In this document: positions 30,180-63,727 of the stretch, piece by piece
Numbering within the stretch: the first letter of the stretch is position 1
Layout of the letters: every line of letters starts with the position of its first letter
DNA from: Coriobacteriia bacterium
Lineage (GTDB): Bacteria > Actinomycetota > Coriobacteriia > Anaerosomatales > JBAZZO01
Direction of reading: 5' to 3'
NCBI GenBank assembly: GCA_041658765.1
Contig: JBAZZO010000013.1
Location: 4,742 to 68,741, forward strand
Length of the DNA stretch: 64,000 nt
Notes under the pieces: generated by a model
What the model was told of the DNA's origin: nothing
The model's input: only the letters and a program-made list of their open reading frames with translations
Database searches by the model: none
Translations under genes and position numbers: made by a program

Positions 30180-30220
30180 GACGTTCCCTTCCTTTGCCGG
30201 TAGGTTCTTCACGAGCGGCG

Positions 30221-45638: not shown

Positions 45639-46793
45639 GTGGCTATCTCGATCGCCGTCGCCGCGGGCTGCACGCTGTGGCTCGGCATGGGCGCCTTCGG
45701 TATCTCTCACCTGCTGCAGCTGCGCTCTCTCGCTCGTGCGGTCCCGGAAGAACCATCGCGCTGGCCACGTGTCTCGGTGATCGTCGCGGCCCGCGACGAG
45801 GCGACCGACTGCGAGGCGGCGCTCCGGTCGCGTCTGGCGGACGACTACCCCGACCTCGAGGTCGTCTTCGTCGACGACCGCTCCACCGACGGCACGGGCG
45901 AGATCGCCGCGCGCGTCGCGGCCGAGGATCCGCGGGTGCGTGTCGTGCGTGTCGAGACGCTGCCGGCGGGATGGCTCGGAAAGGTCAACGCCCTCGCGCA
46001 TGGCGTCGCCGTGGCCGACGGCGAGTGGTTCCTGTTCTCCGACGCCGACGTCTACGTGGCCAGCGGCGGCCTCCGGCGCGCGATCGCGCACGCGGAGGCG
46101 GACGGTCTCGACATGCTCGCGCTGGTTCCCGAGTACGCGTCGAAGGACCTGCTGGTGAACGTGGTGTGGACTGTGTTCTTGCGTGTGATGATGCTCGTGC
46201 TCAGCCCGAGAGCGATCCGCGACCCGCGCAGGAAGACCTCGCTCGGCTCGGGCGCCTTCAACCTCGTGCGGCGCAGCGCGTTCGAGCGGACTCCCGGCTT
46301 CGAGTGGCTGCGCCTCGAGACCGCCGACGACATGGCCCTCGCGATGATGGTCAAGGGCGCGGGCGGACGACTCGAGACGATGGACGGGCGAGGCATCGCG
46401 CGGGTCGAGATCTACCGCAGCGCTGCGGAGTTCTTCCGGGGGATCGAGAAGAACGGCGGCACGACCGCCGCCCATCCATGGCGTTTCACCTTCGGCATGG
46501 CCGTCTTGCTCGCCGTGGAGTACTCGCCGTTCCTCGCGCTCGCGATCGGCCCGGCCTGGATGCGTGCGCTCGGCGCTGTCGCGCTCGTGGTCGCGACCGT
46601 GACCGACGTGCTCGCTCTGCGCATCAACACCGGCCGCATCGCGCCGGCGCTGATGTGGCCGCTCGGGACGCTGCTCTTCGTCGCCGGGACCCTTCGCGCC
46701 ACCTGGCTTGTCCACAGGCGCGGCGGCGTTCTCTGGCGCGGGACGTTCTACCCGCTCGCCGAGATCCACTCGCAGCGACGCTTCCGGTTCTGA
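45639..46793 (+). CDS. Family 2 glycosyltransferase, membrane-bound
   Basis: [10 protein letters not shown]...[12 protein letters not shown]...LFSDADV (DxD), with C-terminal TM helices. GTG 45639 with a purine-rich SD. Confidence 0.75.
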
Positions 46794-46801
46794 GTACCCG
46801 C

Positions 46802-48934
46802 CTAGTGCGCCGCGGTGGCGGCGAGAGCGTTCGGGTCGTCGTGTGCCGTGTCGGAGTACCCGGCGTGACAACCGCGCTGCGCGCTCGTCCCGCCGCAGCT
46901 GGTGAGCCACCGGCCGAAGATGTTCCCGGTGCGCGCGTGACACCCGGCCGTCATGCACCCCGTCTCCACGTGCACCCTGCTCAGGTCCGTCGTCGTGTGG
47001 CAGGTGCGACCGTCACCGCAGTACCCGGGCTGGGCGACGCCGCTCGGCGCGCGCTCGACGCCGACGTGCGCGGCGTCCCTTCCCCTGTGGTAGCCGGTCG
47101 AGCCGTGGCAGGCCGCGCACGCGGACCGGGAGTCGCGGGCGGTCCATCCGCTCCTCACGCGCGACGCGGTCGTGGAGCTGTGGCTGTGACAGCGCACGCA
47201 GAGCGTGCCGGAACCGCGGGCGATCCTCGAGTTCGCGCGGGCGTGCTCGAGACCGAGCACCATGCTGTGGCACGAGCCGCACGTCATGCCCAGTGTGGTG
47301 GCGGGGTCGACGTAGACCGCGTCCCGCTGCGCGTCTCCCGCGATGTGGGAGTCGTCGCGACCATCGAAACGTCCGAACCTACCGTCATGCACGGACGTCC
47401 GCGGGTCGTACTGCCTGCCGCGAGAGTGACAGGCGCGCCCAGAGCCGCAGGTCTTGTCCGACGGGTCGTAGGCTCGGTTGTCGCCCGCCCTGTGGCGGTC
47501 GTGGCAGCGCATGCAGTCACGGTGGAGGTACGATCCCGCGCCGACCCGCGAGAGATCCCCGGTCGGATGACAGCCCGCGCCCGTCGAGGCGCACCCCGTG
47601 CTGCGCGAGGCGTGGGAACCCATGGCGGCGTGCGCCGCGGAGAGACCCTTGCGGCCGTGGCAAGCCTCGCACGCGTCGCGCGTGTCGCGTGCCGACCAGT
47701 CGTTCGCGATCGCGGCCGCCGAGGCGGGGTTGTTGTGGCAGTTCCGGCAGTTGTCGCCTGGGACCTTCGAGCGCCTCGAAGTCCGCAGCGCGTGTTCGTC
47801 GGTGAGGCTCGTGCCGTTCGGAGACATCAGATGGCACGATCCGCACGAGATGCCCCGGAAGGTGTAGGACGCCGCGCGGCGCGACTTCGGCGCGTGCAGC
47901 GAGCGGTCCTTCTTGTGTGTATACGACGTGTTGAGGTAGCTGCGATGGCAAGGCGCGCCCACGGTCCCGCCGCAAGCGGTCACCGTCGGCTCCATCGCCT
48001 GCACCTTGAGGACGTGGCAGCCGGGCTCGCCCTTCTTCGCCGAACCCGAACACTTCGCGGGCTTGGCGGGATGAAGAGCGTGGACGTCGTTCGCGACATG
48101 GCAGCCGGACCCGGTACGTCCGCATCCGAGTTCTCCCGAGGCCACGACCGTTCCCGCCACCGATGCCGAGTGCATCGGCGACGAGGCACCCTCCCTGTGG
48201 CAGTCCTCGCAACGGCGCTTCTTCCAGTCGGAGAGCACCTGCGTCAGACCGAACGATCGCGTGTCGTTGTGGCACTCGCCACAACCGAGATCGCGCCCGT
48301 AGACGCTGCCGGCGACGGTCGGCACTCCCGAATGCGACGTCCTCAGGTCGCGGGAATGGCACTCGTCGCACGACGCCTTCGCGCTACCGCCCTTCACCGC
48401 GTGGACGGGCTGGGTCATGTCGGTCCCCATGGCGGTGTGCGTCGCCTCGCGATAGTGGCCCCGGGGGAACGGGTCGGATATGCGCACCCGGTCGACCGGC
48501 ACCTTCTCCGAACCGTCATGGCACGCCGGGCACTCGTCCTCCTTCAGGTAGTGACACGGGATGCAGCCGACGCCCTGGTAGTCGTGGCAGGGCACGCATT
48601 TCGCATCCTTGTGGTACGCGTTGAAGTCGCGGTAGGACGTCTCGTCCCCGTGGCATCCCTTGCCGGAGTTGGTGCAGCCGCTCTCTCGGACGGGATCGTA
48701 GTCGCTCGCCTTGGTGAAGGAGTGGACCTTGCCCGTAGGAGGGTTCCAGACGGCGGAGAAGACGACCGCCGCGACGATGACGAAGACAAGCCCGGCTCGA
48801 CGCAGCCTCGTGGCGCGCACTTCCTTCGCCAGACTCTCCGAACGGTTCGGTTCCCGCACCGGCGTACCCCCTCCGCGCGCGTGAGGCCGGACCTCACGCA
48901 CTCTCCCAACAGAATGATATCCCGAAAGCATCAT
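46802..48934 (-). CDS. Membrane-anchored multihaem cytochrome c (22 C-Xn-CH sites)
   Basis: One N-terminal TM ([17 protein letters not shown]). 13 CXXCH (CVPCH, CIPCH, CPACH, CDECH, CGECH, CEDCH, CGSCH, CRNCH, CEACH, CMRCH, CGSCH, CVRCH, CAACH) plus 9 CX4-10CH. All 44 Cys are in such pairs. Confidence 0.85.
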
Positions 48935-48959
48935 CTTGGGGGCATCACTCGGCCGTGAC

Positions 48960-48968
48960 TGCTATACT
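48960..48968 (+). promoter_or_regulatory. Extended -10-like element TGCTATACT in the divergent cytochrome intergenic region
   Basis: tgctatact lies 43 bp upstream of ATG 49012. Confidence 0.3.
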
Positions 48969-49011
48969 CGCCTCGGGGTACGAGTCTCGCTCGATCGGAC
49001 GGAGGGGACCG

Positions 49012-49926
49012 ATGAAGAACGTATCGATCCGTACGCGGATCCTCGGTGGCATCGTGCTCGTCAACCTGCTCGGCGCGCTCGTGGTGATGGTCTACCTCCA
49101 CCAGTCGTTCTCGGGCGGCCTCGACGTCGCGTCGAAGAAATCGATGAGCGTGTCCTTGAGCGTGTGGAACGACGTCACATCGCACACGGGCAAGCCTATC
49201 GACTTCGCGAGCCTGTACAAGGACGGCGGATCCTACCTCGAGCGCATGAAGCAGGTGACCGGCTCCGAATACGGCCTGCTCCTCGACAAGGCGGCGACCG
49301 ACGCCCAGTCGTACGAGAAGCTCCGCTCGGCTGCGAACCTGCCCAACGACTGGGACGAGCGCGAGAACAGCGTCCTGTCCGCCGTGACCGATCGCGGCCT
49401 CGCCGACCGGATGACCATCGGCGTCGACTCGGGCTCCATACCCGAGATCGGGAAGATGATCGGCATCGAGAACGGCGCCTGCTCGAAGACGTGCCACGCC
49501 GGCGTCAAGGGCAAGGGCGACTTCTGGGGCGTCTCGTGGAGCGACGACTCGCGCAGCCGCGCGCATGCGGTCTTCCCGGTCGCGGACGCGGCGGGGAAGC
49601 CCCTCGGCCTCGTCTACTCGATCGAGGACATCTCGGCCCAGGCGGACGCCGACAAGGGATCACTCTATCGCACGTTCTTCATGATCATCACCACGCTCTT
49701 GATCGCCACGGCGGTCATCGGCTACATGCTCGACGCCCTCGTCTTCAAGCGTCTCAACCACATGATCATGAGCATGGAGGACCTCTCCATCCGCGTCGCG
49801 GGCGGTGACTTCGGCGCCCACTTCGAGACCGACGGCACCACCGACGAGATCGGAAGGTTCCAGCAGTTCTTCGCGAAGTTCCTGGACCTGATGTCGTCGA
49901 CGCTCGACGCGCTGCTCAAGAAGTAG
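49012..49926 (+). CDS. Two-TM sensor-like protein: extracytoplasmic haem-c (CXXCH) domain + HAMP, no output domain
   Basis: TM1 ILGGIVLVNLLGALVVMVYL. Outer domain with NLPNDWDERENSVL...GACSKTCHAG (resembles the Tll0287/DUF3365 haem-c sensor). TM2 FFMIITTLLIATAVIGYML. HAMP FKRLNHMIMSMEDLS...TDEIGRFQQFF. GGAGGGG SD. Confidence 0.65.
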   Translation: MKNVSIRTRILGGIVLVNLLGALVVMVYLHQSFSGGLDVASKKSMSVSLSVWNDVTSHTGKPIDFASLYKDGGSYLERMKQVTGSEYGLLLDKAATDAQSYEKLRSAANLPNDWDERENSVLSAVTDRGLADRMTIGVDSGSIPEIGKMIGIENGACSKTCHAGVKGKGDFWGVSWSDDSRSRAHAVFPVADAAGKPLGLVYSIEDISAQADADKGSLYRTFFMIITTLLIATAVIGYMLDALVFKRLNHMIMSMEDLSIRVAGGDFGAHFETDGTTDEIGRFQQFFAKFLDLMSSTLDALLKK

Positions 49927-49951
49927 CACGCCCGGGACTCGGGGAGGGTTC

Positions 49952-52381
49952 ATGACAAGGACCAAAGGGGTCGCGCTAGCCGTTGCGGCGGCGGCGCTCG
50001 TCCTGGCACTGCCCGCGCTGGCCGACGGCGTACCGGTGACCTACAACGCCTACGGCCGCGCATTCGTCGGGCGGGGCTGCTCCGACCAATCGGGCGGGAC
50101 CGGCCTGGGCTGCCATTCGACGGGCCGCGACGGCGCGAGCATCGTCAACAGCGACACCCCGCACCACAAGATGGTGCAGGACGTCCGCGCGCATCCTTCG
50201 GCCCTCCTCCCCGCGGCGTCCGCATCGGGAATGTGGCCGACGCCGACGTTCGGGACGGGCCTGCGGGTCTTCCCCTCCAACATCGCCTACATCATCGGCG
50301 GCTCGAACCTCGGCAAGGAGTACGTGCTCATCCCGGGAAGCGCCATCACGGCGGGCTACGGACCCACGAGCGTGCCGTTCCCCTCTGGCGCGCCCGCCGA
50401 CGACCTGCCCCTCCTCAACGGCTGCAACGGCGCGTACGAGAACGGCGCATGGACGTGGGCGGCCGAGGGTGTCGTCGGCGTCAGCGCGTATTTCCAGCGC
50501 TGCGGAGGCTGCCACAATCTCGGCGTCACAAGAGCGGCGAACGCCACGTACACGCTCGGCGACGGGGTGGCCACGATGGGCCGTTCGACGCCGACGACGG
50601 TCGCCGCGCTGAGCATCCTCTGCGAGGTCTGCCACGGCACGGGCCGCGAGGGCGGGCGCTGCGGCGTCGAGGTCGCCGCGTGGACGACGGCGGGCCCGCG
50701 GCCGATCCTCTCGTCTCGGGTCTGCGGCCAGTGTCACGTGACCGGCACGGCGCGCGAGACCAACTACGCCGGGAGCGGCAAGTTCTCGAACCCCAACGGC
50801 TACACCGTCGACCAGACGCTGACCGCCTACTTCGACGTCGCGAGCACGGTGCCGAGCGAGGGCGGCTTCGTCGCGGGGACCGGGAGCAGCGCCAGCAAGT
50901 TCTACCCGAATGGCGCCAACCAGACGATGCGCCACAGCTACTACAACGAGTGGCTGAAGACGGGGCACGCCAAGACACTCACGAGCCCGGGGAACAACGT
51001 GCTGAATGCCGCCCGGGGCCGCGTGAAGTGCCTGCGTTGCCACACCGGCGAGGGCTTCCTCGACTACATCGGCGCGAGCATCGTGCCCACACAGTTCGAC
51101 GTGACGTTGACCACCTTGCCCGTCAGCGGGCGCTGGACGACCAACGCGATGTACGCACAGGAGTGCGTGATCTGTCATGTCTCCCACGACTCCAGGTCGG
51201 GACTCGGTAGAAGGACCAACCAGCGGACCGGTAGGCGCGTCTCCTGCGGGGACTGCCACAACTGGCAGTACGAGGTGCTCGAGACGACGATAACCTCCAA
51301 CTACGACCTGCCGATCTCGAGCTACCGTTCGGGCAGCGTGCGCGTGAGCCACCCGAACCGCGAGATGCTCGCCGGCCGCGGCCTTCCCGAGGTCACGCTG
51401 GGCGAGGAGTTCATGCCCGGGGCCAGGTGCTCCGGATGCCACATGCCCGACACCGCCCGCAACGCGCAGCGCCCGAGCCACCGGTTCCTGCCGATGGAGC
51501 CGGGCGACGCCGAACGTTGGCAGGTGAAGGAAGAGGGCGACTCCTGCACGCCTTGCCATCCCAGCTTGAGTCGCGAGAGCCTGCAGGAGAGCATCGAGGA
51601 GTGGAAGGACACCTTCGCGGCCGGCGATCGGACCGCGTCCGCCGCCATCGACGCCGGGTACCTGCGTGGCTTCGCGACGTCGTCGGCGACGAACTGGATG
51701 CTCTACAAGAAGGCCTATCTCATCCGCTCGTATCTCCGCAACGACGGCAGCTCCGGCGTCCACAATCCACCGTACGCGGCGGCCGGGTGGGCGAAGGCCG
51801 CGTACATGGCGAAGGCCATCGGGGGTTCGGTCTCCATCGCGGACGCGGGCGGCGGCACCTACATCTGGGGGACCGTCTCGTTCGGCGACGGCACGGCCGT
51901 CCGCGAGCAGGTCGTATCCGTCGAGGCGAAGCCCTACGGCGCCACGGGCTGGGCCACTCTCTCGAGCACGAAGACCGACTCGGCGGGCCGCTATTCCGTG
52001 AACATCGCCCCGACCGTGAACACGCGCTACCGCGTCGTATGGCGCGTCACGTCGACGGAGCGGATCTCCAGCTCCGACCGTCTCGTCAGCGTCCGGGCCC
52101 GCACGAGCCTCGTCGCCACGCCCTTCATCGTCCCGTTCGGACGGGCGTTCACGCTCACCGGGAGAGTCACCCCCGCGCAGGCCGGCAGCGTGGTCATCCA
52201 GTACCGCCCCAGCACATCATCCGTGTGGCGCACGCTCACCCGGCGGACGCTCTCCGGGACGGGCACCTTCGCGTATCGCCTGACACGCGCCCGCGGCGCA
52301 TGGTGGTTCCGCGCGACCTGGGCGGGCAACGCCCGGTATGCCGGTTCGACGTCCGCCCCCGTGATCGTCTTCGTCCACTGA
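49952..52381 (+). CDS. Secreted multihaem cytochrome c (8 CXXCH + 1 CX10CH) fused to the shared C-terminal surface module
   Basis: Signal peptide VALAVAAAALVLALPALADG. CGGCH, CEVCH, CGQCH, CLRCH, CVICH, CGDCH, CSGCH, CTPCH plus CSDQSGGTGLGCH. NrfA-superfamily-like helix DGSSGVHNPPY. Two beta-sandwich domains at the C-terminus. Confidence 0.85.
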   Translation: MTRTKGVALAVAAAALVLALPALADGVPVTYNAYGRAFVGRGCSDQSGGTGLGCHSTGRDGASIVNSDTPHHKMVQDVRAHPSALLPAASASGMWPTPTFGTGLRVFPSNIAYIIGGSNLGKEYVLIPGSAITAGYGPTSVPFPSGAPADDLPLLNGCNGAYENGAWTWAAEGVVGVSAYFQRCGGCHNLGVTRAANATYTLGDGVATMGRSTPTTVAALSILCEVCHGTGREGGRCGVEVAAWTTAGPRPILSSRVCGQCHVTGTARETNYAGSGKFSNPNGYTVDQTLTAYFDVASTVPSEGGFVAGTGSSASKFYPNGANQTMRHSYYNEWLKTGHAKTLTSPGNNVLNAARGRVKCLRCHTGEGFLDYIGASIVPTQFDVTLTTLPVSGRWTTNAMYAQECVICHVSHDSRSGLGRRTNQRTGRRVSCGDCHNWQYEVLETTITSNYDLPISSYRSGSVRVSHPNREMLAGRGLPEVTLGEEFMPGARCSGCHMPDTARNAQRPSHRFLPMEPGDAERWQVKEEGDSCTPCHPSLSRESLQESIEEWKDTFAAGDRTASAAIDAGYLRGFATSSATNWMLYKKAYLIRSYLRNDGSSGVHNPPYAAAGWAKAAYMAKAIGGSVSIADAGGGTYIWGTVSFGDGTAVREQVVSVEAKPYGATGWATLSSTKTDSAGRYSVNIAPTVNTRYRVVWRVTSTERISSSDRLVSVRARTSLVATPFIVPFGRAFTLTGRVTPAQAGSVVIQYRPSTSSVWRTLTRRTLSGTGTFAYRLTRARGAWWFRATWAGNARYAGSTSAPVIVFVH

Positions 52382-52386
52382 CCGGC

Positions 52387-53346
52387 ATGCCAGGACGCCG
52401 GCTCGGCACCGACCCGCGGCTCAAGCGCTACGACCGCCTCGAGGACATGATCGGCGACACGGCGAACCCGACGCCGATCGTCGCGTTGCGCCGGATGGCG
52501 CCTCCCGGAGTCGCACTCTACGTGAAGCTCGAATGGGTGAACCCGTTCGGCTCGATCAAGGACCGCGCGGCGAAGTGGATGCTGACCGGGCTCGAGGCGC
52601 GCGGCGAGCTCGGCGACCGCACCATCGTCGAGGCGACCTCGGGCAACACGGGCATCGCGCTCGCCGCGATGGCGGCGCTGATGGGCAAGCGCATCGTGAC
52701 GACGGTCCCCCGCGAACTCTCCGACGAGAAGGACGCGCTCCTTCGCATGTTCGGGGCTAGCGTCGTCCGCACCCCCGCGGACGCCCCCGCCGGCGAGCAC
52801 CCGATGGACACCGCGTTCGCGATGGCCGAGGCGATGGCTCGCGACGCGGACGCGTACGTGATGCCGAACCAGTACGACAATGCCGACAACGTTCGCGCCC
52901 ACTACGAGACCACGGGCCCGGAGATCTGGGAGCAGGCCGAGGGCACGGTGCGCTACTTCTTCGCCGGCTTCGGGACATGCGGCACGCTCGTCGGCGCCGG
53001 ACGCTACCTCAAGGAGCGCGACCCCGACGTGCGCGTCATCGGCATCGAGCCGGTTCCCGGCCACCACATCTCGGGACTGAAGAACCTCACCGAGACGAGC
53101 GTCCCGGGCATCCTCGACCGATCGGTCCTCGATGAGGTCGTCTCCGTCGACGACGAGATGACCAACGAGACGATGGTGCGCCTCTATCGCGAGGAGGCGC
53201 TCGCCGTCGGTCCGTCCGCCGCGGCGATACTCGCGGGCGCGCTGCGCTACCTCGAAGGCCGCGAAGGCGTCGCCGTCGCGATCGCCCCCGACAGCGGGCA
53301 GAAGGCGGCGAGCTACCTCGCCGACGTCATGCGGGACGAGGCGTAG
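52387..53346 (+). CDS. Cysteine synthase family PLP enzyme (CysM/CysK-like)
   Basis: YVKLEWVNPFGSIKDRAA (PLP Lys), EATSGNTGIALA, FAGFGTCGTLVGAG. 319 aa from ATG 52387. Confidence 0.85.
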   Translation: MPGRRLGTDPRLKRYDRLEDMIGDTANPTPIVALRRMAPPGVALYVKLEWVNPFGSIKDRAAKWMLTGLEARGELGDRTIVEATSGNTGIALAAMAALMGKRIVTTVPRELSDEKDALLRMFGASVVRTPADAPAGEHPMDTAFAMAEAMARDADAYVMPNQYDNADNVRAHYETTGPEIWEQAEGTVRYFFAGFGTCGTLVGAGRYLKERDPDVRVIGIEPVPGHHISGLKNLTETSVPGILDRSVLDEVVSVDDEMTNETMVRLYREEALAVGPSAAAILAGALRYLEGREGVAVAIAPDSGQKAASYLADVMRDEA

Positions 53347-53349
53347 ACC

Positions 53350-53658
53350 GTGCCCGCGGGAGAGCGTGCGACCGTCCACATGTTCGGCGTGCTCCACTCG
53401 CTGCGGGTGGAGCGGGGCCTTCCCTCGAGCGTGGAAATGGACGTCCCGCCCGAGGGTGTGCCGGCGCGCGCGATCGCGCTCGATCTCGATCTGCCTCTTG
53501 AAAGCATCGAGGCGGTCTTCGTGAACCACACCGCGTTCGGACTCGACCACGTCGTCCTGCCGGGCGACCGGGTCGCGTTCGCGCCGTTCGGCACTCCCGG
53601 CCCGCATCGGTTCTGCCTCGGCCTCTTCGACGCCGGCCGTGAGGGCCGCGACGATTAA
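53350..53658 (+). CDS. MoaD/ThiS-like ubiquitin-fold protein lacking a C-terminal GG
   Basis: ATVHMFGVLHSL...VFVNHTAFGLDHVVLPGDRVAFAPFGTPGP follows the MoaD/ThiS layout, but ends FGTPGP plus a further extension instead of GG. It starts 3 nt after the cysM-like stop. Confidence 0.4.
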   Translation: MPAGERATVHMFGVLHSLRVERGLPSSVEMDVPPEGVPARAIALDLDLPLESIEAVFVNHTAFGLDHVVLPGDRVAFAPFGTPGPHRFCLGLFDAGREGRDD

Positions 53659-54242
53659 GCTTCGTCGATGCCGAACAGCAGGCGGATCGCCATGTGCGCC
53701 TCATGCGCGGCGGCCGTCATGACCCGCGAGGCGATCAGCGGCGAGCCGAGACTCGCGTCGCTCGTCAGGTCGCCCACCACGTAGAGACGCTGCGCCATGC
53801 GGTCCGTGACGATGTCGTTCGCCGAACCGGTCCCGGCGAGCCCCGACGCAGTGATGAGAGGCGTGCCGGGCGCCACGCGCATGCATGCGTTGACGATCAT
53901 CGCCTTCGTCGCCGCCGCATCCACCGCCTCGATGATGACGTCGGCGCCGCGCACGAGGCGCGGTAGGTTCTCCTCGGTGATACGCTCGGTCACGAGCGTA
54001 AGACGCACTTCGGGGTCGATGCGCGAAAGGGTCTCGGCGAGCGCCTCGGTCTTGAGCCGGCCGATCTGGTCGCGGAAGTAGAGCTGGCGGTCGAGATTCG
54101 ACTCCTCCACGCGATCGAAGTCGACGAGCGTGAGCGCGCGCACCCCGCCGCGGACGAGCATGGCGGCCGCGTTGCTGCCCAGCCCGCCGCAACCGAGGAC
54201 GACGACACGTGCCGCGCCGAGGCTTGCGCGCACGTCGCTCAT
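53655..54242 (-). CDS. ThiF/MoeB/HesA-family E1-like adenylyltransferase (short form)
   Basis: RVVVLGCGGLGSNAAAMLVRGGV...LVDFDRVEESNLDRQ is a Rossmann/ATP motif. 195 aa. Only the 3' part of the 569-aa track ORF is used. Confidence 0.8.
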   Translation of the reverse strand: MSDVRASLGAARVVVLGCGGLGSNAAAMLVRGGVRALTLVDFDRVEESNLDRQLYFRDQIGRLKTEALAETLSRIDPEVRLTLVTERITEENLPRLVRGADVIIEAVDAAATKAMIVNACMRVAPGTPLITASGLAGTGSANDIVTDRMAQRLYVVGDLTSDASLGSPLIASRVMTAAAHEAHMAIRLLFGIDEA

Positions 54243-54478
54243 CCCCCCGCCACCGGCGGGAAGACGGCGAGACGGTCGCCGTCGCGCAGGACCGTCGTCT
54301 CCTCCGCGTGCCGTCCGTTGACGAAGACCACCCGCGGCTCGTCCGGAAGCGCCAGAGACGCCGCCACGTCGGCGACGGTCGTACCCTCGGCGAGCTCGAA
54401 GGGGCGGGCGTGGCGTCCGCCCGCCCCGTCGGGCTGGTAACGCGCGAGTGTCGCGAAGAGCGCTATGTCGACCTTCAT
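54239..54478 (-). CDS. MoaD/ThiS-family sulfur carrier (C-terminal GG)
   Basis: 79 aa ending ...DGDRLAVFPPVAGG. The stop overlaps the ThiF-like start (ATGA). Confidence 0.8.
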   Translation of the reverse strand: MKVDIALFATLARYQPDGAGGRHARPFELAEGTTVADVAASLALPDEPRVVFVNGRHAEETTVLRDGDRLAVFPPVAGG

Positions 54479-54493
54479 TCCGCTCCCGCTCTA

Positions 54494-56266
54494 TCAGAGA
54501 CCCATCGACGCGGCGGTCTCGGGGACGAAATCGAAGACGGTGTCGAGCTCGGCGTCCGGGACCTCGAAGACGACATCGTGCGGCGGCAGGGGGTCGGTGA
54601 GGAAGAAGCTCGGCAGACGGTCGTCGGCCGCGGTGAACCCCGCATTCGCGTTGAAGAACCGCTCGTACGTGAGGACCTCCTTGCCGAGCGTCATCAGTTC
54701 GTCCGCGCCCCACACCTCGCCGAGGTGCGCCGAGACCATCTCGTGGATGGCCGCGAACGCCTCGGGGATGTCGAGGACGGGGAAGGCGACGAAGATGCAC
54801 AATCCCAGCGCGTCGAGCATCGCGGTGGCGATCTGCAGGTTCCTGGAGAGCTCGATCTGCCCGGCAGGCTTGAGAGGATCGACGAAGCCGCCGACCTTGA
54901 GGATGTTCGCCGTGACCGCATAACCCGCCGTGTGGTCCGCACCCATCGTAGAGGTCGCGTACGTCACGCCGATCCCCATGACCGAGCGCGGATCGTACGC
55001 GGGCAGCGCCTGATGCTTGACGACCGGGATGCGCGCGACGCCGAACGCCTTGCCGGTCGCCTCCGCGCCGTGGCCGAGTATCGGCCCGGGCTTCCCGCCG
55101 CCGAAGACGCTGCGCAGCGCCGCGAGCGCGGCCTTGCCGTCGCCGAACGGGATCGCCCCGGAGTCCATGTAGACGGCCATCGTCGCGCCGGTCTCGATGG
55201 TGTCGAGACCGAGGTCGCCGCACAGCCGGTCGAGCTCGGCGATGTCGTCCAGGTCGGATATGCCGCAGTCTGCGCCGAACGACCAGACGGTCTCGTACTC
55301 CGGCCCCTTGGTCTTGTACTTGCCGTCCTTGTCGACCCAGTAGCGGGAGCATTGGATGACGCAACCGCTGTGGCAGCCGTGCTGGACGTCACCGCCGCGC
55401 TCGAGGATGATCTCGCGCTGCCGCTCGCCGGAGGTGGCCTCCGCGCCCTCGAACGTGCCGCTCGAGAAGTTGCGCGTCGGCAGGCCGCCGGCCTCGGACA
55501 GGATGTTGGTGAGCACGTTCGTGCCGTACATCGGGAGAGCGGTGCCGGAGACGGCGTGCTCCTTGAGCGCCGCGGCGAACCGTTTGACGGCCGCATTGAA
55601 CGCGTCCTTGTCGGCGTGAGCGAGGTTCGGCAGGCCCTTGTCGGACACGACGATCGCCTTGAGTCCCTTGCTCCCCATGACGGAGCCGAGACCCCCGCGG
55701 CCGGCGAAGCGGTTCGGGTAGCCCTTCATGTCGGAGACCGCGATGCCGGCGGCCTTCATCCCGGCCTCGCCCGCCGGGCCGATCGTGATGGTGGCGTAGC
55801 GGTCGTCGGCCGGGCGCTTCGCCTTGATGGCGTCGGCGACCTCGTAGTTGCCTTTCTCCGCCCATTCATCGACGCGCTCGAACCTCACCGAGCCGTCGGC
55901 TTCCATGATCATCATGTAGCGCGCGTTCGCGTCGGTGGGCTTGCCGCTGACCACTACCGCGGCGATCCCGAGACGACCCAGCGCATTGGCGGCCTGACCG
56001 CCCGAGTTCGACTCCTTGATGCCGCCCGTGAGCGGGCTCTTCGCCCCGAAGGAGAGCCGTCCGCCGTTGGGCGCGGTGGTGCCTCCGAACAGCCCGGGGG
56101 CGATCACGAGCACGTTCTCGGCGCCGAGCGGGTCGGCTTTCGGCGGCACTTTCTCCCAGACGAGCGCGCTCGTCAGAGCCCTGCCCCCATAGTGGGCCCA
56201 CTTCGCGGGGACCGGCTCCTTGACCGCGGTGGGGCCGGACATGTCCACGTACAGGATCTCTCTCAT
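54494..56266 (-). CDS. aor: Aldehyde:ferredoxin oxidoreductase family (tungstopterin enzyme)
   Basis: ILYVDMSG...YGGRALTSAL...SPLTGGIKESNSGG...GADHTAGY...ALGLCIF are aldehyde:ferredoxin oxidoreductase N- and C-domain signatures. 590 aa. Confidence 0.9.
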   Translation of the reverse strand: MREILYVDMSGPTAVKEPVPAKWAHYGGRALTSALVWEKVPPKADPLGAENVLVIAPGLFGGTTAPNGGRLSFGAKSPLTGGIKESNSGGQAANALGRLGIAAVVVSGKPTDANARYMMIMEADGSVRFERVDEWAEKGNYEVADAIKAKRPADDRYATITIGPAGEAGMKAAGIAVSDMKGYPNRFAGRGGLGSVMGSKGLKAIVVSDKGLPNLAHADKDAFNAAVKRFAAALKEHAVSGTALPMYGTNVLTNILSEAGGLPTRNFSSGTFEGAEATSGERQREIILERGGDVQHGCHSGCVIQCSRYWVDKDGKYKTKGPEYETVWSFGADCGISDLDDIAELDRLCGDLGLDTIETGATMAVYMDSGAIPFGDGKAALAALRSVFGGGKPGPILGHGAEATGKAFGVARIPVVKHQALPAYDPRSVMGIGVTYATSTMGADHTAGYAVTANILKVGGFVDPLKPAGQIELSRNLQIATAMLDALGLCIFVAFPVLDIPEAFAAIHEMVSAHLGEVWGADELMTLGKEVLTYERFFNANAGFTAADDRLPSFFLTDPLPPHDVVFEVPDAELDTVFDFVPETAASMGL

Positions 56267-56338: not shown

Positions 56339-57100
56339 TCACCGCGCCGCGTTCGCCACGATCGCGTCGCGGACGTAACGCGCCATGCCGGGGCGGATCT
56401 TCTCGTAGTTCGCCGTGAACCGGGGGTCGGCGACGTACATCTCGCCGAGCGCGACGTGCATCTCGCGCGAGCACGGGTAGAACCACTTGTCGATCTGGAG
56501 ACGATGGCGGTCCACGGCGTCCATCGCGCGAGGGTCGCCGGCCGGCACGCCCTCGTCCATGAGCGCGGCGATGGCCGAGCCTATCTCCTCGCTCTCGTCC
56601 TTGAAGCGCTGCCAGTCGGCCTTGGTGTAGCGGGCGGTGCGGCGCGCCGACTCCTTGTACGCGTCGGTATCGCCCCAGCGCTGCCGCACCTCGTCCTCGT
56701 ACTGCGTGGGGTCGAAGTCCTCGAAGACCTCGAACATCTCTTCCTTGCTCATCGTCGTCCCTTCTTCCATGGCGTGAAGCGTCCTGTCGATGAGGCCGAG
56801 CATCGCCTCGAACCTGATGGCCTGCCCGGCGATGAGGTCGCGCTGGACGAGCAGCGCCTCCCGGCGGTCGAACGCGGGGTCGGCCATAAGGCCGCGGATC
56901 TCGTCGAGGCCGAACCCCAGCTCCTTGTAGAAGAGCACCTGCTGGAGCCGCTCGAGGTCTGCCTCGGTGTAGAGCCGGTAGCCCGCCTCCGAGCGATGCG
57001 AGGGCGTCAGCAGACCCGCCTCGTCGTAGTGGTGCAGCGTCCGAACGCTCACGTGCGCGAGCTTGGCCACTTCGCCGACTCTGTACGCCATCGCGTCCAC
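56339..57100 (-). CDS. MerR-family regulator with TipAS-like C-terminal domain
   Basis: YRVGEVAKLAHVSVRTLHHYDEAGLL (MerR HTH) and a C-terminal TipAS-like antibiotic-recognition region. The start could be ATG 57091. Confidence 0.85.
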   Translation of the reverse strand: MDAMAYRVGEVAKLAHVSVRTLHHYDEAGLLTPSHRSEAGYRLYTEADLERLQQVLFYKELGFGLDEIRGLMADPAFDRREALLVQRDLIAGQAIRFEAMLGLIDRTLHAMEEGTTMSKEEMFEVFEDFDPTQYEDEVRQRWGDTDAYKESARRTARYTKADWQRFKDESEEIGSAIAALMDEGVPAGDPRAMDAVDRHRLQIDKWFYPCSREMHVALGEMYVADPRFTANYEKIRPGMARYVRDAIVANAAR

Positions 57101-60596: not shown

Positions 60597-61616
60597 TCAC
60601 GCCCCGTTCGCTCGCGCCACGATGCGCTCCAGCCCCGTGCGCACCTCGTCCACCACGTACTGCGCCGCCCTCACCTCCCCGGAGTCGAGCCCGAGCAGCG
60701 CCACCTGTTCCGGCCCCTTCTCGGTGCACAGGATCAGCCCGATGGGCGCCGAGTCACCCGGATGCCGCTGATGGTGGTCGAGCCAGCGCAGGTAGAGCAT
60801 CATCTGCCCGTAGTCACCCGGTTCGAGCGGGCGTGTCTTGAGCTCGAGGGCGACGTAGCACCGCATCGTGATGTGGTAGAGGAGCAGATCGAGCCGGTAG
60901 TCGTGCCCGTCGACGGTCATGCGCTTCTGCCGCTCCACGAACGCGAAGCCGACACCGAGTTCGAGCAGGAAACGCTGCATCTCGTCGAGGATCGCGCGTT
61001 CGAGGTCGGCTTCGCCGTGTTCCGGTGCCAGACCGAGGAAATCGAGCACGTACGGGTCTCGGAAGGCGAGGGCCGGCTCGACGGTGCCGGTGGTGGCGAG
61101 CGCGGCGAGATCGGCTTCGATCCCGTCGGCGGAGCCTCGCGCGGCGATGGTGCGCTCGTAGAGCTTGCCGACGATCTTTGCCCGCAGGGTGCGCTTCGAC
61201 CAGCGCTCGTGTGTGCAGAACGCGAGGTAGAAGTCGCGTTTCCGCTGGTCGGGGATTGTGAGGAGCTCGGTGATGTTCGTCCATGTCAATTTGCGCGCCA
61301 GTGGCGCGCATTTCTCGCGATCAGGTAGCCACTCCGCGAAGTGGATCATCCGCTCGATGTTCCGCCGACTCCAACCGCGTCCGTAGCGCTCGGTGAGCCT
61401 CGCGGCGAGTCGCCTGATGACTTGCTGCCCGTACGCAGCGCGCTCTCCGCCCAGGACGTCCTCGCGTACGCGCTTGCCGATGCTCCAGTAGAGCATGACG
61501 AGCTCGCTGTTGACCGACGCCGCGACCCGCTGGCGCGCACTGTCGATCAGGTCCGCGACATCGCCGAAGAGAGCGTCGTCCACGGGCGTCAGCGCTCTCA
61601 GGTCATCGTCGTCCAT
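60597..61616 (-). CDS. DUF1016 / YhcG-family PDDEXK nuclease-domain protein
   Basis: N-terminal LVMLYWSIGKRV...WTNITELL. C-terminal DLLLYHITMRCYVALELK is a PD-(D/E)xK-like core. Confidence 0.8.
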   Translation of the reverse strand: MDDDDLRALTPVDDALFGDVADLIDSARQRVAASVNSELVMLYWSIGKRVREDVLGGERAAYGQQVIRRLAARLTERYGRGWSRRNIERMIHFAEWLPDREKCAPLARKLTWTNITELLTIPDQRKRDFYLAFCTHERWSKRTLRAKIVGKLYERTIAARGSADGIEADLAALATTGTVEPALAFRDPYVLDFLGLAPEHGEADLERAILDEMQRFLLELGVGFAFVERQKRMTVDGHDYRLDLLLYHITMRCYVALELKTRPLEPGDYGQMMLYLRWLDHHQRHPGDSAPIGLILCTEKGPEQVALLGLDSGEVRAAQYVVDEVRTGLERIVARANGA

Positions 61617-61870
61617 CCGGTTGTCGCCTCTCGCGCGGGGGCACACGCCGATCCGCGTGTGCCACACGAGACTACGAGGGCGGCCTTACCGGAATCTGAG
61701 CGGAGCCCAAACGGCGGCGGCGCATGAGGAGAGACAAGGGCGTATGCACCGCAAGTGGCTTGCGAACTCATGTCGGTCGACGCGGTCGGTCCCCCTACCA
61801 CCGCGGACCGACCGAGGGGATGGCATCCCCGGGCGACCATGTGCCCACTACGACAACTAAGTGGCTCCGG

Positions 61871-61903
61871 CTCGATTGTCCTGGCGATGTCTGGACAATC
61901 GAG
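61871..61903. repeat. Perfect 11-bp-stem inverted repeat (ctcgattgtcc N11 ggacaatcgag) at the truncation point of the duplicated yhcG copy
   Basis: Read directly. It ends 1 nt from where similarity between the two YhcG copies stops (61904). Confidence 0.6.
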
Positions 61904-62281
61904 CTGATCGGAGATGGTGAGGAGTTCCGTGATGTTGGTCCAGGTCAATTGTTGCGCCAGTGGCGCAACAATCTGCCCTTCGGGGTACATGTCCGCGAAC
62001 TTCATCATCCGGGTCAGGGCGGAGTAGGAATACCCGCGACCGTAGCTGACGGTCAGTCGAGCCGCCAGGCGTTTCACCGTATCCTGCCCGTACGCAGCGC
62101 GCTCTCCGCCCAGGACGTCCTCGCGTACGCGCTTGCCGATGCTCCAATAGAGCATCACGAGCTCGCTGTTGACCGACGCCGCGACCCGCTGGCGCGCACT
62201 GTCGATCAGGCTGGCGACATCGCCGAAGAGGGCGTCGTCCATGGGCGTCAGCGAGCCAAGATCGTTCCGCTCCGAATCCAT
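61904..62281 (-). pseudogene. Truncated tandem paralogue of the YhcG/DUF1016 gene (N-terminal ~126 codons only)
   Basis: MDSERNDLGSLTPMDDALFGDVASLIDSARQRVAASVNSELVMLYWSIGKRVREDVLGGERAAYGQ... parallels the full copy up to LLTISDQ and then diverges. DNA 62084-62253 versus 61425-61594 shows about 7 mismatches by eye. Confidence 0.7.
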
Positions 62282-62417
62282 GCAGGCGCCTCCGTGACGA
62301 TGCTCGCATGACGCTCTTGCCGGGTTCTAACCCGAGTCTGCACGCGGCATATATCGCGCTGTGTGAGCAGCTGCGCGGCACCCGCACGTCGACCTTCACG
62401 CGTTCGAGGTCCAGCGA

Positions 62418-63636: not shown

Positions 63637-63727
63637 GATCGCACCTCCCTCGGCGGCGGTCCCATCGTAGTGGATGCGCCCTACCGGAATCTTACTCGAT
63701 TCGACCACATCAGCGCCTCGGCTGCCG

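What the first reader, a model, noticed from the sequence alone, without database searches (positions are those of the whole stretch)
46802..52381. Divergent multihaem-cytochrome locus: candidate extracellular electron-transfer conduit in a sortase-bearing (monoderm) high-GC organism
Seen in sequence:
- 46802-48934(-) encodes a 710-aa protein with a single N-terminal TM helix and 22 C-Xn-CH sites.
- 77 bp away and divergent, 49012-49926(+) encodes a 2-TM protein with one CSKTCH in its outer domain plus a HAMP domain.
- 25 bp further on, 49952-52381(+) encodes a signal-peptide protein with 8 CXXCH and one CX10CH. It also has a helix resembling the conserved C-terminal helix of NrfA/octahaem-family enzymes (DGSSGVHNPPYAAAGW). 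It ends in the two beta-sandwich domains found at the C-termini of other exoproteins in this window.

Established: chains of multihaem cytochromes from membrane to cell surface underlie extracellular electron transfer in Geobacter and Shewanella, and in the monoderm Thermincola.

Inference: a membrane-anchored haem wire feeds a wall-associated 9-haem protein, with a haem-based redox sensor encoded in the same unit. Together this gives about 32 putative haem sites. No ccm or resBC/ccsBA maturation genes lie in the window.
Basis: partly seen in the sequence, partly recalled or inferred. Interest (0 to 1): 0.8.

Follow-up and report, generated by a model that had tools for sequence, protein, structure and literature searches.

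The report
Gram-positive multihaem electron-export gene cluster
An uncultured Coriobacteriia bacterium carries three adjacent genes for about 32 haem sites, one a clear relative of OcwA, the surface protein Thermincola uses to pass respiratory electrons to minerals; the cluster is a plausible, only partly new way for a thick-walled bacterium to move electrons outside the cell.

Summary
Three real genes (GC3 0.86-0.94) carry 22, 1 and 9 C-Xn-CH sites, against about 1.3, 0 and 0.1 in shuffles.

- **C** belongs to the OcwA/OmhA clade of Gram-positive cell-surface reductases. The family profile hits PDB 6I5B at E=2e-84, against about 1e-10 for NrfA. It has no CXXCK, and relatives carry cell-wall-binding (CWB2) or SLH anchors.
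- **A** is a membrane-anchored protein with a tetrahaem head and three hexahaem repeats. All 44 cysteines sit in C-Xn-CH pairs. Nine long-loop sites (CX4-10CH) are conserved in 32-36 of 36 homologues. It has no solved relative. Here it is a short form, lacking about 385 C-terminal residues found in relatives.
- **B** is a TM-PAS/sCache-TM-HAMP protein with an invariant CX3CH and no output domain.
- **Synteny:** A precedes B in 33 of 35 informative loci. C is present in roughly 14.

The best reading is a haem chain from membrane to cell surface, with direction and substrate unknown. Multihaem cytochromes, an OcwA homologue and Fe(III) reduction are already reported for cultured Coriobacteriia, so this is a new variant of a known kind. 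No maturation genes lie in the window. Function is untested.

The parts
46802..48859 (-). Gene A: membrane-anchored 22-site multihaem cytochrome. It is 685 aa from GTG 48859; the ORF is open to ATG 48934, which would give 710 aa. Residue numbers below use the 710-aa frame.
   Evidence: ORF; GC3 0.86. It has 13 CXXCH and 9 CX4-10CH, and 44 Cys equals 22 pairs. Homologues of 50-55% identity occur in Coriobacteriia MAGs. There is no solved relative: the profile's best hit is NrfB at E=0.001.
48746..48796 (-). A: N-terminal hydrophobic anchor helix (residues 47-63), preceded by an Arg-rich stretch
   Evidence: Hydropathy. AlphaFold2 predicts a helix at 31-63 with pLDDT about 80. No small-x-small cleavage site is evident, which is my reading of the sequence.
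48395..48745 (-). A: tetrahaem head (residues 64-180) with CX6CH, three closely spaced CXXCH and invariant His71 just after the anchor
46805..48394 (-). A: three tandem hexahaem units (residues 181-350, 351-540, 541-710). Each has three CXXCH followed by three mostly long-loop sites.
   Evidence: Pairwise BLASTP between units gives E=4e-12, 2e-11 and 1e-22. Pfam Cytochrome_C7 hits 181-247 at 43 bits. Site conservation is 32-36 of 36.
48860..49011 (.). Divergent intergenic region between A and B-C. It contains a small hairpin at 48879-48899.
   Evidence: No sigma-70-type match was found.
49012..49926 (+). Gene B: TM - PAS/sCache-like domain with one haem-c motif - TM - HAMP, with no output domain (304 aa)
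   Evidence: AlphaFold2 mean pLDDT 85.7. Foldseek hits a model of WalK at 2.8e-8, plus sCache chemoreceptor sensor domains and CitA PAS. There are 248 homologues, nearly all about 303 aa.
49480..49497 (+). B: CSKTCH (CX3CH) haem-c attachment motif within the invariant GIENGxCxxxCH
49750..49923 (+). B: HAMP-type helix-connector-helix (…RVAGGDF…DEIGRFQQFF…) ending the protein
   Evidence: Motif conservation; helices 208-263 and 279-303; weak NCBIfam matches to the WalK and chemoreceptor HAMP regions. Pfam's HAMP model gave no hit.
49952..52381 (+). Gene C: secreted nine-site cytochrome of the OcwA/OmhA clade with two C-terminal Ig-like domains (809 aa)
   Evidence: The single sequence hits 6I5B at E=5.8e-25. 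The family profile hits 6I5B at 2.4e-84 and 6QVM at 4.9e-28.
49952..50026 (+). C: Sec-type signal peptide (residues 1-25, …LPALA|DG)
   Evidence: Hydropathy, plus my reading of the sequence.
50078..50116 (+). C: CX10CH site at the position of OcwA haem 1. Relatives have CXXCH, CX3CH or CX4CH here.
51410..51799 (+). C: last two haem sites plus the NrfA/OcwA-type C-terminal helical region
   Evidence: Pfam PF02335 hits residues 487-616 at 27.4 bits. The alignment to OcwA runs to residue 609.
51839..52375 (+). C: two Ig-like beta-sandwich domains (residues ~630-703 and 723-808). They replace the CWB2 or SLH anchors of relatives.
   Evidence: Big_1 E=0.07 and Big_3_5 E=1.3e-6, both below cut-off. 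Relatives P0003 (3 x CWB2, 1e-31) and P0023 (3 x SLH, 3.5e-24) are.

Best explanation
The locus encodes a cell-envelope multihaem electron-transfer module of a monoderm Coriobacteriia bacterium. This is the same kind of system as the Thermincola and Carboxydothermus extracellular electron-transfer pathways.

Proposed mechanism:
- **A** is held in the cytoplasmic membrane by one N-terminal helix. It carries about 22 covalently bound haems on the outer face, arranged as a tetrahaem head followed by three hexahaem repeats. It takes electrons at the membrane, presumably from menaquinol or a membrane oxidoreductase, and relays them outward by haem-to-haem hopping. At roughly 1 nm per haem this chain could reach some tens of nanometres, comparable to a Gram-positive wall. 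That length is inference.
- **C** is exported by a signal peptide. As an OcwA-type nonahaem protein it acts as the terminal surface oxidoreductase that contacts minerals, shuttles or soluble acceptors. Its Ig-like domains stand in for the CWB2 or SLH anchors that hold its relatives in the wall or S-layer.
- **B** is a two-TM protein with a haem-c-bearing PAS/sCache domain outside and a HAMP hairpin inside. It most likely reports the redox state of the chain or of the extracellular acceptor to an unidentified cytoplasmic partner.

Shown here: gene reality, motif statistics and conservation, membership of C in the OcwA clade, the fold of B, the repeat architecture of A, and synteny.

Inferred: haem occupancy of the long-loop sites, topology, the A-to-C hand-over, the electron donor, the direction of flow, and B's signalling role.
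For: - C is in the OcwA clade. The single sequence hits 6I5B at E=5.8e-25 with eight CXXCH in register. The family profile hits 6I5B at 2.4e-84 across the whole chain and OmhA (6QVM) at 4.9e-28. NrfA and octahaem nitrite reductases reach only about 1e-10.
- 6I5B is OcwA, the characterised terminal surface reductase of Thermincola potens (PMC6703420).
- The clade-defining non-bonding distal histidines H282 and H381 (PMC9250108) correspond to H328 (32/32) and H467 (27/32) in C's family. No member has CXXCK.
- Relatives of C carry three CWB2 repeats or three SLH domains, above Pfam cut-offs.
- In A, all 44 Cys form 22 C-Xn-CH pairs. Each site is conserved in 32-36 of 36 homologues. Some sites switch between CXXCH and CX4/CX8CH. 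Observed 22 sites against a shuffle mean of 1.3. A has one N-terminal helix and a tandem hexahaem repeat structure.
- A-type units also build signal-peptide proteins with 60-121 candidate sites.
- For B.
- Synteny: A lies immediately upstream of B in 33 of 35 informative loci, and C is adjacent in roughly 14.
- The host is monoderm: a sortase sits next to an LPNTA substrate in the window.
- Cultured relatives in the class respire Fe(III) and encode 17-18 multihaem cytochromes, including an OcwA homologue (PMC9686372). A 67% GC Coriobacteriaceae strain expresses multihaem cytochromes on a cathode (PMC7943316).
Against: - There is no functional, expression or localisation evidence for this locus.
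- No cytochrome c maturation genes lie in the window or within 10 kb of any of 68 related loci. The rest of the genome could not be searched.
- A is C-terminally truncated here relative to its family (22 sites against 28-35). It is also inverted relative to B-C, so the local chain may be impaired.
- This C lacks a recognisable wall anchor (no CWB2, SLH or LPXTG).
- C is absent from over half of the A-B loci.
- In the two cultured Anaerosomatales, the OcwA-homologue cluster is reported in the strain that does NOT reduce Fe(III) (PMC9686372).
- OcwA's HH pairs are RH and SH here, so haem 2 and haem 5 chemistry may differ.
- OcwA also turns over nitrite and hydroxylamine in vitro.
- The AlphaFold2 model of A is poor (pLDDT 55.8) and gave no fold matches, so haem-chain continuity is untested.
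- B has no output domain.
Confidence: 0.65

Rival explanations
1. The module is an extracytoplasmic respiratory or detoxifying reductase for soluble substrates such as nitrite, hydroxylamine, NO, sulfur oxyanions, flavins or humic quinones. C would be the catalytic subunit, using its two open-site haems, and A would be its membrane electron donor. This parallels NrfA-NrfH or MccA systems rather than a mineral or electrode conduit.
For: - C belongs to the NrfA/c554/MccA superfamily. PF02335 hits residues 487-616, and the family profile reaches NrfA and octahaem nitrite reductases at about 1e-10.
- OcwA has two five-coordinate haems and reduces nitrite and hydroxylamine in vitro.
- The distal His of both pockets is conserved in C's family, and an Arg commonly precedes it (R327 in 19 of 32).
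- The OcwA-homologue cluster is reported in the isolate that does not reduce Fe(III).
Against: - There is no CXXCK, and no MccA-type CX15CH or copper-site residues were seen.
- OcwA's nitrite kcat is only about 1 per minute (PMC6703420).
- The match to OcwA and OmhA is 60-70 orders of magnitude better than to any dedicated reductase.
- No NrfH-size partner is present. A 22-35-haem partner is far larger than needed to feed a periplasmic enzyme.
- Wall and S-layer anchors in relatives point to a surface role.
Confidence: 0.2
2. The hardware is the same but runs inward. The module would take up electrons from Fe(II) minerals, cathodes or syntrophic partners and deliver them to the membrane quinone pool, hydrogenase or formate dehydrogenase.
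For: A high-GC Coriobacteriaceae strain dominating a methane-producing biocathode highly expresses multihaem cytochromes and was proposed to take up cathodic electrons (PMC7943316). Haem chains are intrinsically bidirectional, which is established knowledge.
Against: Nothing in the sequence indicates direction. It is not known whether that strain carries the A-B-C module. OcwA, the characterised relative, works outward in Thermincola.
Confidence: 0.1
3. In this particular genome the module is a rearranged remnant. A lost its C-terminal third (six haem sites) in a rearrangement that also inverted it. The chain would then be non-functional, or reduced to a B-C pair.
For: - A aligns to residues 7-674 of a 1,059-aa homologue and stops 9 bp from a convergent gene.
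- The missing part is nowhere in the window.
- The usual orders are C-A-B or A-C-B on one strand.
Against: - The ORF is intact, with coding GC3 of 0.86. All 22 sites and all cysteine pairs are preserved.
- The break falls exactly at a repeat-unit boundary, as expected for modular pruning.
- The closest relative, L004, shares the divergent A<-|->B-C layout, so the arrangement is inherited rather than an assembly artefact.
Confidence: 0.1
4. B is not a sensor but a structural or electron-entry subunit of the A complex. For example, it might help oxidise menaquinol at the membrane surface and hand electrons to A through its single haem.
For: - The A-B pairing is near-obligate (33 of 35 loci).
- B has no output domain in about 250 homologues.
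- An invariant Tyr28 and His30 sit at the outer end of TM1.
- No other conserved membrane partner lies near the module.
Against: - The fold and HAMP hairpin are those of signalling proteins.
- Haem-less dCache-TM-HAMP-only relatives exist in Anaeromyxobacter and Coriobacteriia, mostly away from cytochrome genes.
- In L001 the slot after A holds a Tll0287-like-GGDEF protein, a bona fide signalling architecture.
- A single haem in a PAS pocket is probably too far from the membrane for quinol oxidation, which is inference.
Confidence: 0.15

Closest known systems
OcwA (TherJR_2595, PDB 6I5B), the nonahaem cell-surface terminal reductase of Thermincola potens
   Same: C aligns over the whole haem domain. 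It has nine sites, eight of them CXXCH in register, the two conserved distal histidines, the NrfA-type C-terminal helices and a signal peptide, in a Gram-positive host.
   Different: - Identity is only moderate.
- The haem-1 site is CX10CH.
- The HH pairs are RH and SH.
- C has about 190 extra C-terminal residues forming two Ig-like domains (CWB2 or SLH in relatives), which OcwA lacks.
- The host is an actinobacterium, not a clostridial thermophile.
OmhA (PDB 6QVM), the undecahaem S-layer cytochrome of Carboxydothermus ferrireducens
   Same: It is the second-best solved match to C's family (E=4.9e-28). It is a surface-layer-associated member of the same clade (PMC9250108).
   Different: OmhA has two extra N-terminal haems. 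The match covers mainly the C-terminal module.
Thermincola pathway: ImdcA (membrane decahaem), PdcA (periplasmic decahaem), CwcA (wall hexahaem), then OcwA
   Same: The logic is the same: a haem relay from the quinone pool through a 20-80 nm wall to an OcwA-type surface protein (PMC7911101).
   Different: Here one anchored polypeptide of 22 sites (28-35 in relatives) would replace the three separate carriers. No sequence relationship of A to ImdcA, PdcA or CwcA could be tested. A haem-c PAS-HAMP protein is an additional conserved partner.
c7-type multidomain 'nanowire' cytochromes (Pfam PF14522 Cytochrome_C7; NCBIfam TIGR04257 nanowire_3heme, which I recall from memory as modelled on Geobacter GSU1996) and NrfB
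   Same: A's repeats begin with a c7-like trihaem element (PF14522 at 43 bits). The A-family profile weakly matches the pentahaem NrfB (E=0.001). The design is modular and tandem.
   Different: The TIGR04257 score of 19.7 is below its cut-off of 40. A's units are hexahaem, with three conserved long-loop CX4-10CH sites each. A is membrane-anchored. No significant solved homologue exists.
Haem-c PAS sensors (Tll0287-like PF11845; from memory, Geobacter GSU0582/GSU0935-type chemoreceptor domains)
   Same: B has a covalent haem-c motif in an extracytoplasmic PAS/Cache-like domain flanked by TM helices and followed by HAMP. A Tll0287-like-GGDEF gene takes the position downstream of A in L001, where B usually sits.
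   Different: There is no Pfam PF11845 hit. BLASTP to the L001 protein gives only E=0.003. B's motif is CX3CH, and it has no transmitter or output domain.

Membership tests
OcwA/OmhA clade of cell-surface multihaem cytochromes | Significant sequence homology across the whole haem domain to OcwA (6I5B) | tested here: met
   phmmer gives E=5.8e-25 for residues 145-609. The family profile gives E=2.4e-84, covering profile positions 36-605 against chain residues 15-492.
OcwA/OmhA clade of cell-surface multihaem cytochromes | Nine haem-binding sites in the OcwA order | tested here: met
   Eight CXXCH align one-to-one with OcwA motifs. The N-terminal site occupies the haem-1 column, which is CXXCH in many relatives and CX10CH here.
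OcwA/OmhA clade of cell-surface multihaem cytochromes | Non-bonding distal histidines over the two open-site haems (OcwA H282 and H381), conserved in all OcwA/OmhA sequences (PMC9250108) | tested here: met
   H328 is present in 32 of 32 family members and H467 in 27 of 32. Both are present in the window protein.
OcwA/OmhA clade of cell-surface multihaem cytochromes | Accompanying histidines H281 and H380 (the HH pairs) | tested here: not met
   The window protein has R327 and S466. The family shows R/N/K at the first position and R/H/S at the second. [quoted passage not shown]
OcwA/OmhA clade of cell-surface multihaem cytochromes | Cell-surface location and Fe(III), electrode or flavin reductase activity | not testable with these tools
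   There is only indirect support: a signal peptide and CWB2 or SLH anchors in relatives.
NrfA pentahaem nitrite reductase | CXXCK catalytic haem motif | tested here: not met
   No CXXCK occurs in C or in any of 31 relatives.
NrfA pentahaem nitrite reductase | Full-length match to the family model, and an NrfH or NrfBCD partner gene | tested here: not met
   PF02335 matches only profile positions 241-369 of 438. The NCBIfam NrfA equivalog scores 11.5 bits against a cut-off of 595. There is no NrfH-size tetrahaem gene in the window.
MtrC/OmcA outer-membrane decahaem cytochromes | Staggered-cross decahaem architecture with a porin-cytochrome (MtrAB) partner | tested here: not met
   PF22113 gives a partial hit (37 bits, profile positions 6-140 of 176). 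No PDB MtrC or OmcA match reached E<=1 with the single sequence or E<=0.1 with the family profile. The host is monoderm, and no porin gene was seen in the part of the window scanned. OcwA is stated to be unrelated to MtrC (PMC6703420).
NapC/NirT/NrfH/CymA quinol dehydrogenases (considered for A's anchored tetrahaem head) | Match to PF03264 or TIGR03153 over the N-terminal TM plus tetrahaem region | tested here: not met
   A has no such hit at E<=1. In the long homologue P0087 the PF03264 hit lies at residues 893-1010, in the part missing here.
c7-type trihaem repeat cytochromes (PF14522 / TIGR04257) | Score above the family cut-off | tested here: inconclusive
   PF14522 scores 43.2 bits, above its cut-off of 24.8, for residues 181-247. 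TIGR04257 scores 19.7, below its cut-off of 40.
HAMP-containing transmembrane sensors (B) | TM - extracytoplasmic sensor domain - TM - HAMP topology | tested here: met
   AlphaFold2 pLDDT is 85.7 with that order of elements. Foldseek hits a model of WalK at E=2.8e-8, plus sCache and CitA PAS domains.
HAMP-containing transmembrane sensors (B) | HAMP domain recognised by a curated model | tested here: inconclusive
   There is no Pfam HAMP hit at E<=1. Weak NCBIfam matches cover the WalK and chemoreceptor HAMP regions (E=4.5e-4 and 4.8e-3). The conserved AGGDF…DEIG motif is present.
HAMP-containing transmembrane sensors (B) | Cytoplasmic transmitter or output domain (kinase, MCP, GGDEF or similar) | tested here: not met
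   The protein ends about 25 residues after the DEIG motif. The same is true in nearly all of the roughly 120 listed homologues, which are about 303 aa long.
Tll0287-like haem-c PAS domain (PF11845) | Match to PF11845 | tested here: not met
   B has no hit at E<=1. BLASTP to a PF11845-GGDEF protein from L001 gives only E=0.003.

The most novel reading that the evidence does not exclude
The A family would be an undescribed class of Gram-positive 'wall-spanning' haem wires with three features:
1. It uses a second, conserved type of haem-c attachment site: Gly-rich CX5-10CH loops, three per hexahaem unit. Such sites would probably need a dedicated haem lyase, as CX15CH and CXXCK do in Wolinella (from memory).
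2. It is built from hexahaem units that can be concatenated. Chains range from 22 sites here to more than 100 sites in single secreted polypeptides of the same lineage.
3. It works as an obligate pair with a haem-c PAS-HAMP protein that couples the redox state of the chain to the cytoplasm.

Together with a wall-anchored OcwA, this would be a complete pathway from quinol to the cell surface, encoded by two or three genes.
Probability: 0.3. Interest if true: 0.8.

Novelty: new variant of a known kind. Interest (0 to 1): 0.58.

Why it matters
How electrons cross a thick Gram-positive wall has been worked out, and only partly, for Thermincola and Carboxydothermus. The locus shows three things.

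- **Wider distribution of the terminal reductase.** The OcwA-type reductase is widespread in uncultured, high-GC Coriobacteriia of sediments and the subsurface. There it is fused to CWB2, SLH or Ig-like anchoring domains.
- **A new partner pair.** It travels with a previously uncharacterised pair of genes. One is a very large anchored cytochrome rich in conserved non-canonical haem sites. The other is a haem-c PAS-HAMP protein.
- **Practical consequences if the model holds.** It would give a compact two- or three-gene marker for electroactivity in Actinomycetota. It would offer a test bed for haem attachment to long CXnCH loops. It would also supply a modular scaffold (22 to about 120 haems) for long-range electron transport.

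The general idea is not new. Multihaem cytochromes, an OcwA homologue and Fe(III) respiration have been reported for cultured OPB41 Coriobacteriia, which limits the surprise.

Tried and rejected
- **Structure of A.** AlphaFold2 with 36 homologues gave mean pLDDT 55.8 and pTM 0.37. Foldseek against the PDB returned no match. No structural claim is made for A.
- **Promoter and terminator scans.** They found nothing at 46500-52700. The consensus is probably unsuited to this 69% GC organism.
- **Maturation genes.** A search for the WWD motif of CcsA/ResC/CcmF in the window and 68 loci gave only one spurious out-of-frame hit.
- **Missing C-terminal third of A.** It was not found elsewhere in the window at tblastn E<0.01.
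- **Tll0287-like identity of B.** No Pfam hit was found.
- **NapC/NrfH identity of A's head.** No hit was found.
- **Shared beta-sandwich domains with other exoproteins.** Matches were only about 9 bits.
- **Distant B-like proteins.** Those in Anaeromyxobacter and some Coriobacteriia lack the haem motif, and only 4 of the 18 loci checked had a haem-motif-rich ORF nearby. They say little about function.
- **Literature.** The supplement of PMC9686372 held nothing on the OcwA-homologue cluster. Two recent preprints on multihaem cytochromes do not mention this lineage.

Full report
**Observation**

The three ORFs are present as described. Their third-position GC is 0.86 (A), 0.94 (B) and 0.91 (C), in a window averaging about 68% GC, so they are real genes. 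A regular-expression count reproduces the finding:
- A has 13 CXXCH plus nine CX4-10CH, giving 22 'CH' sites.
- B has one CSKTCH.
- C has eight CXXCH plus one CX10CH.

Twenty thousand composition-preserving shuffles give on average 1.3, 0.0 and 0.1 such sites, with maxima of 7, 1 and 3. Hydropathy shows one N-terminal helix in A, two in B and a signal peptide in C.

Ribosome-binding sites support ATG 49012 for B and ATG 49952 for C. For A they point to GTG 48859 (GGAGGGGG upstream), not ATG 48934. A is therefore most likely 685 aa, as in the public gene call P0064, and the divergent spacer is about 152 bp. No other haem-motif-rich ORF lies in the window.

**Source and host**

Identical proteins are on record from a 70.4-kb contig of a 'Coriobacteriia bacterium' MAG. 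The window also holds a sortase (12207-12872, Pfam E=3e-31). Directly beside it is an ice-binding-like protein ending in LPNTA, a hydrophobic stretch and a basic tail. This fits a monoderm host.

The flanking genes include MscL, an aminotransferase, a PALP enzyme, ThiF, an aldehyde:ferredoxin oxidoreductase-like ORF, a MerR/TipAS regulator, Kdp and purine synthesis genes. None bears on the cytochromes.

**Protein C**

- Pfam gives partial hits to Cytochrome_C7, MtrC/MtrF domains II/IV and the C-terminal part of Cytochrom_C552.
- Against solved structures, the only single-sequence hit is 6I5B (E=5.8e-25). Eight CXXCH motifs align one to one, and the alignment runs through the terminal helix GSSGVHNPPYA.
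- A profile of 32 family members hits 6I5B at E=2.4e-84 over the whole chain. It hits 6QVM at 4.9e-28. NrfA and octahaem nitrite reductases reach only about 1e-10.
- 6I5B is OcwA, the nonahaem cell-surface terminal reductase of Thermincola potens (PMC6703420). 6QVM is OmhA, the S-layer undecahaem of Carboxydothermus ferrireducens (PMC9250108).
- PMC9250108 states that all OcwA and OmhA sequences keep the non-bonding distal histidines H282 and H381. By the alignment these are H328 and H467 of C, conserved in 32/32 and 27/32 family members.
- The accompanying H281 and H380 are R327 and S466 here. No member has CXXCK.
- The first haem site sits in one alignment column but is CXXCH, CX3CH, CX4CH or CX10CH in different members. 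The long loop in C is therefore a variant of a genuine haem site.
- Most relatives are about 1,020 aa and end in three CWB2 repeats (P0003, E=1e-31) or three SLH domains (P0023, E=3.5e-24).
- The window protein and its closest relative (P0002, 52% identity) instead end in about 190 residues. Only P0002's length (812 aa) was compared, not its tail. In the window protein these residues score weakly as Ig-like domains: Big_3_5 at 29 bits and Big_1 at 14 bits, both below cut-off.

**Protein A**

- It has no PDB relative by sequence. The family profile finds only NrfB at E=0.001.
- An exhaustive HMMER scan of 1.84 billion representatives finds just 126 clusters at E<=0.001.
- All 44 cysteines belong to the 22 C-Xn-CH pairs. 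Relatives show the same bookkeeping, with 58 Cys for 28-29 sites.
- Each of the 22 sites is conserved in 32-36 of 36 homologues. Most long-loop sites have fixed spacing (6, 10, 6, 4, 4…). Several sites alternate between CXXCH and CX4/CX8CH among homologues.
- I take this as strong evidence that the long loops bind haem. It is not proof.
- A resolves into an anchor helix (47-63), a tetrahaem head (64-180, with invariant His71 just outside the membrane) and three tandem hexahaem units. The units match each other at E=4e-12 to 1e-22.
- Compared with its 1,060-1,150-aa homologues, A stops after unit 3. It lacks about 385 residues carrying six more CXXCH, including the stretch that scores as NapC/NirT-like in P0087.
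- The missing part is nowhere in the window, and a convergent gene ends 9 bp away.
- The AlphaFold2 model is poor (pLDDT 55.8) and gives no fold match.

**Protein B**

- About 250 homologues exist, nearly all about 303 aa.
- Invariant residues include GIENGxCxxxCH, His30 at the outer end of TM1 and the AGGDF…DEIG HAMP signature. His185 is nearly invariant.
- The AlphaFold2 model (pLDDT 85.7) shows a TM helix, an alpha/beta PAS/Cache-like domain, a second TM helix and a helix-connector-helix.
- Foldseek matches a model of WalK (2.8e-8), sCache chemoreceptor sensor domains and CitA PAS.
- There is no output domain.
- Pfam gives no HAMP hit and no Tll0287-like hit.
- Distant relatives (25-30% identity) in Anaeromyxobacter and some Coriobacteriia are dCache-TM-HAMP-only proteins. 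They lack a haem motif and mostly do not sit beside cytochromes.

**Synteny**

- In loci fetched through C homologues the order is C-A-B (L003) or A-C-B (L005). In L001 it is C-A followed by a Tll0287-like-GGDEF gene.
- The closest relative, L004, shares the divergent A<-|->B-C layout of the window.
- Among 62 species-representative genomes with a B relative, all close ones are Coriobacteriia or Actinomycetota MAGs.
- A lies immediately upstream of B on the same strand in 33 of 35 loci with enough upstream sequence. An OcwA-like C is adjacent in roughly 14.
- The conserved core is thus A+B, with C as a frequent add-on.
- Several loci hold further multihaem genes nearby.
- No CcsA/ResC-type WWD motif occurs in the window or in any locus.

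**Interpretation**

The evidence fits a Thermincola-like pathway (PMC7911101) compressed into fewer proteins:
- an anchored chain of 22 haems (28-35 in relatives) in place of ImdcA, PdcA and CwcA;
- an OcwA-type terminal protein held at the wall;
- a haem-c PAS-HAMP partner.

Literature support comes from two sources. Cultured OPB41/Anaerosomatales encode 17-18 multihaem cytochromes including an OcwA homologue, and one isolate is an obligate Fe(III) reducer (PMC9686372). A 67% GC Coriobacteriaceae strain expresses multihaem cytochromes on a biocathode (PMC7943316).

Cautions:
- The OcwA-homologue cluster is reported in the isolate that does not reduce Fe(III).
- OcwA turns over nitrite and hydroxylamine slowly in vitro.
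- This C lacks a recognised anchor.
- This A is truncated.
- Maturation genes, localisation, direction and substrate are all untested.

**Novelty**

The kind of system is known, and the presence of OcwA homologues in this class has been noted. I found no description of the following in the searched library:
- the A family;
- its invariant CX5-10CH sites (no paper mentions CX5CH, CX6CH, CX8CH or CX10CH);
- its near-obligate pairing with B;
- the CWB2/SLH/Ig-fused OcwA subfamily.

I therefore class the locus as a new variant of a known kind.

Noticed in passing
Proteins P0337, P0306, P0314, P0301 and others; P0301 lies on OW818687.1, the same genome as L040: The A-type haem unit also builds signal-peptide 'mega-cytochromes' of 2,000-4,917 aa with 60-121 C-Xn-CH sites in one chain. 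P0337, for example, has 121 sites and 256 Cys. P0301 consists of tandem copies of the whole A unit and ends with the same C-terminal module as long A homologues.
   Followed up: partly
L046-L068 (Anaeromyxobacter, Myxococcota and some Coriobacteriia MAGs): These loci encode a wider family of about 400-aa dCache-TM-HAMP-only proteins that end with the same DEIGxFExFF motif as B. They lack a haem motif and have no output domain. Their signalling partner is unknown.
   Followed up: partly
L001:16406-17623 (-): In one relative the position downstream of A, where B usually sits, is occupied by a Tll0287-like (PF11845)-GGDEF protein on the opposite strand. A B homologue (P0188) lies elsewhere on the same 449-kb contig.
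   Followed up: partly
window 12207-13851 (-): A sortase gene is directly followed by its likely substrate. This is an ice-binding-like (PF11999, E=1e-53) secreted protein with a Pro/Thr linker and an LPNTA sorting signal.
   Followed up: partly
window 8277-9641 (-), 11012-12190 (-), 14511-16484 (-), 27564-30269 (-): Four large predicted secreted proteins (one with NHL repeats, one with DUF7743, one with a weak Big_1 hit) end in a similar tail pattern (…G-R/L-W-x-h-R/L-A…V/T-V-R). It loosely resembles the end of C's last Ig-like domain, with phmmer scores of only about 9 bits.
   Followed up: partly
L015:14718-15998, L016:14571-15806, L017:7291-8586, L031:9953-11251 (all -): A 412-433-aa ORF with 11-12 CXXCH recurs about 4.5 kb downstream of B on the opposite strand in several A-B loci that lack an OcwA-like gene. 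It may be an alternative partner cytochrome.
   Followed up: no
window 56339-57100 (-) and L001:8493-9257 (-): A MerR/TipAS-type regulator lies within a few kb of the cytochrome genes both here and in a distant relative's locus. This could be coincidence or a regulatory link.
   Followed up: no
window 52447-56266: This cluster holds a PALP (cysteine-synthase-like) enzyme, a small ThiS/MoaD-sized ORF (53350-53658, no Pfam hit), a ThiF-family protein and a 590-aa ORF that reads like an aldehyde:ferredoxin oxidoreductase by eye, not tested with a family model. It suggests sulfur-carrier chemistry next to the cytochrome locus.
   Followed up: no
window 48879-48899: A perfect 8-bp inverted repeat (GCGTGAGG…CCTCACGC, 5-nt loop) lies in the divergent region just upstream of A's likely start.
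   Followed up: no
window 60597-64000: A YhcG/DUF1016 PDDEXK nuclease gene (60597-61667) is followed by a drop in GC to 0.63 in the last 2 kb of the window. This may be the edge of a mobile or foreign segment.
   Followed up: no
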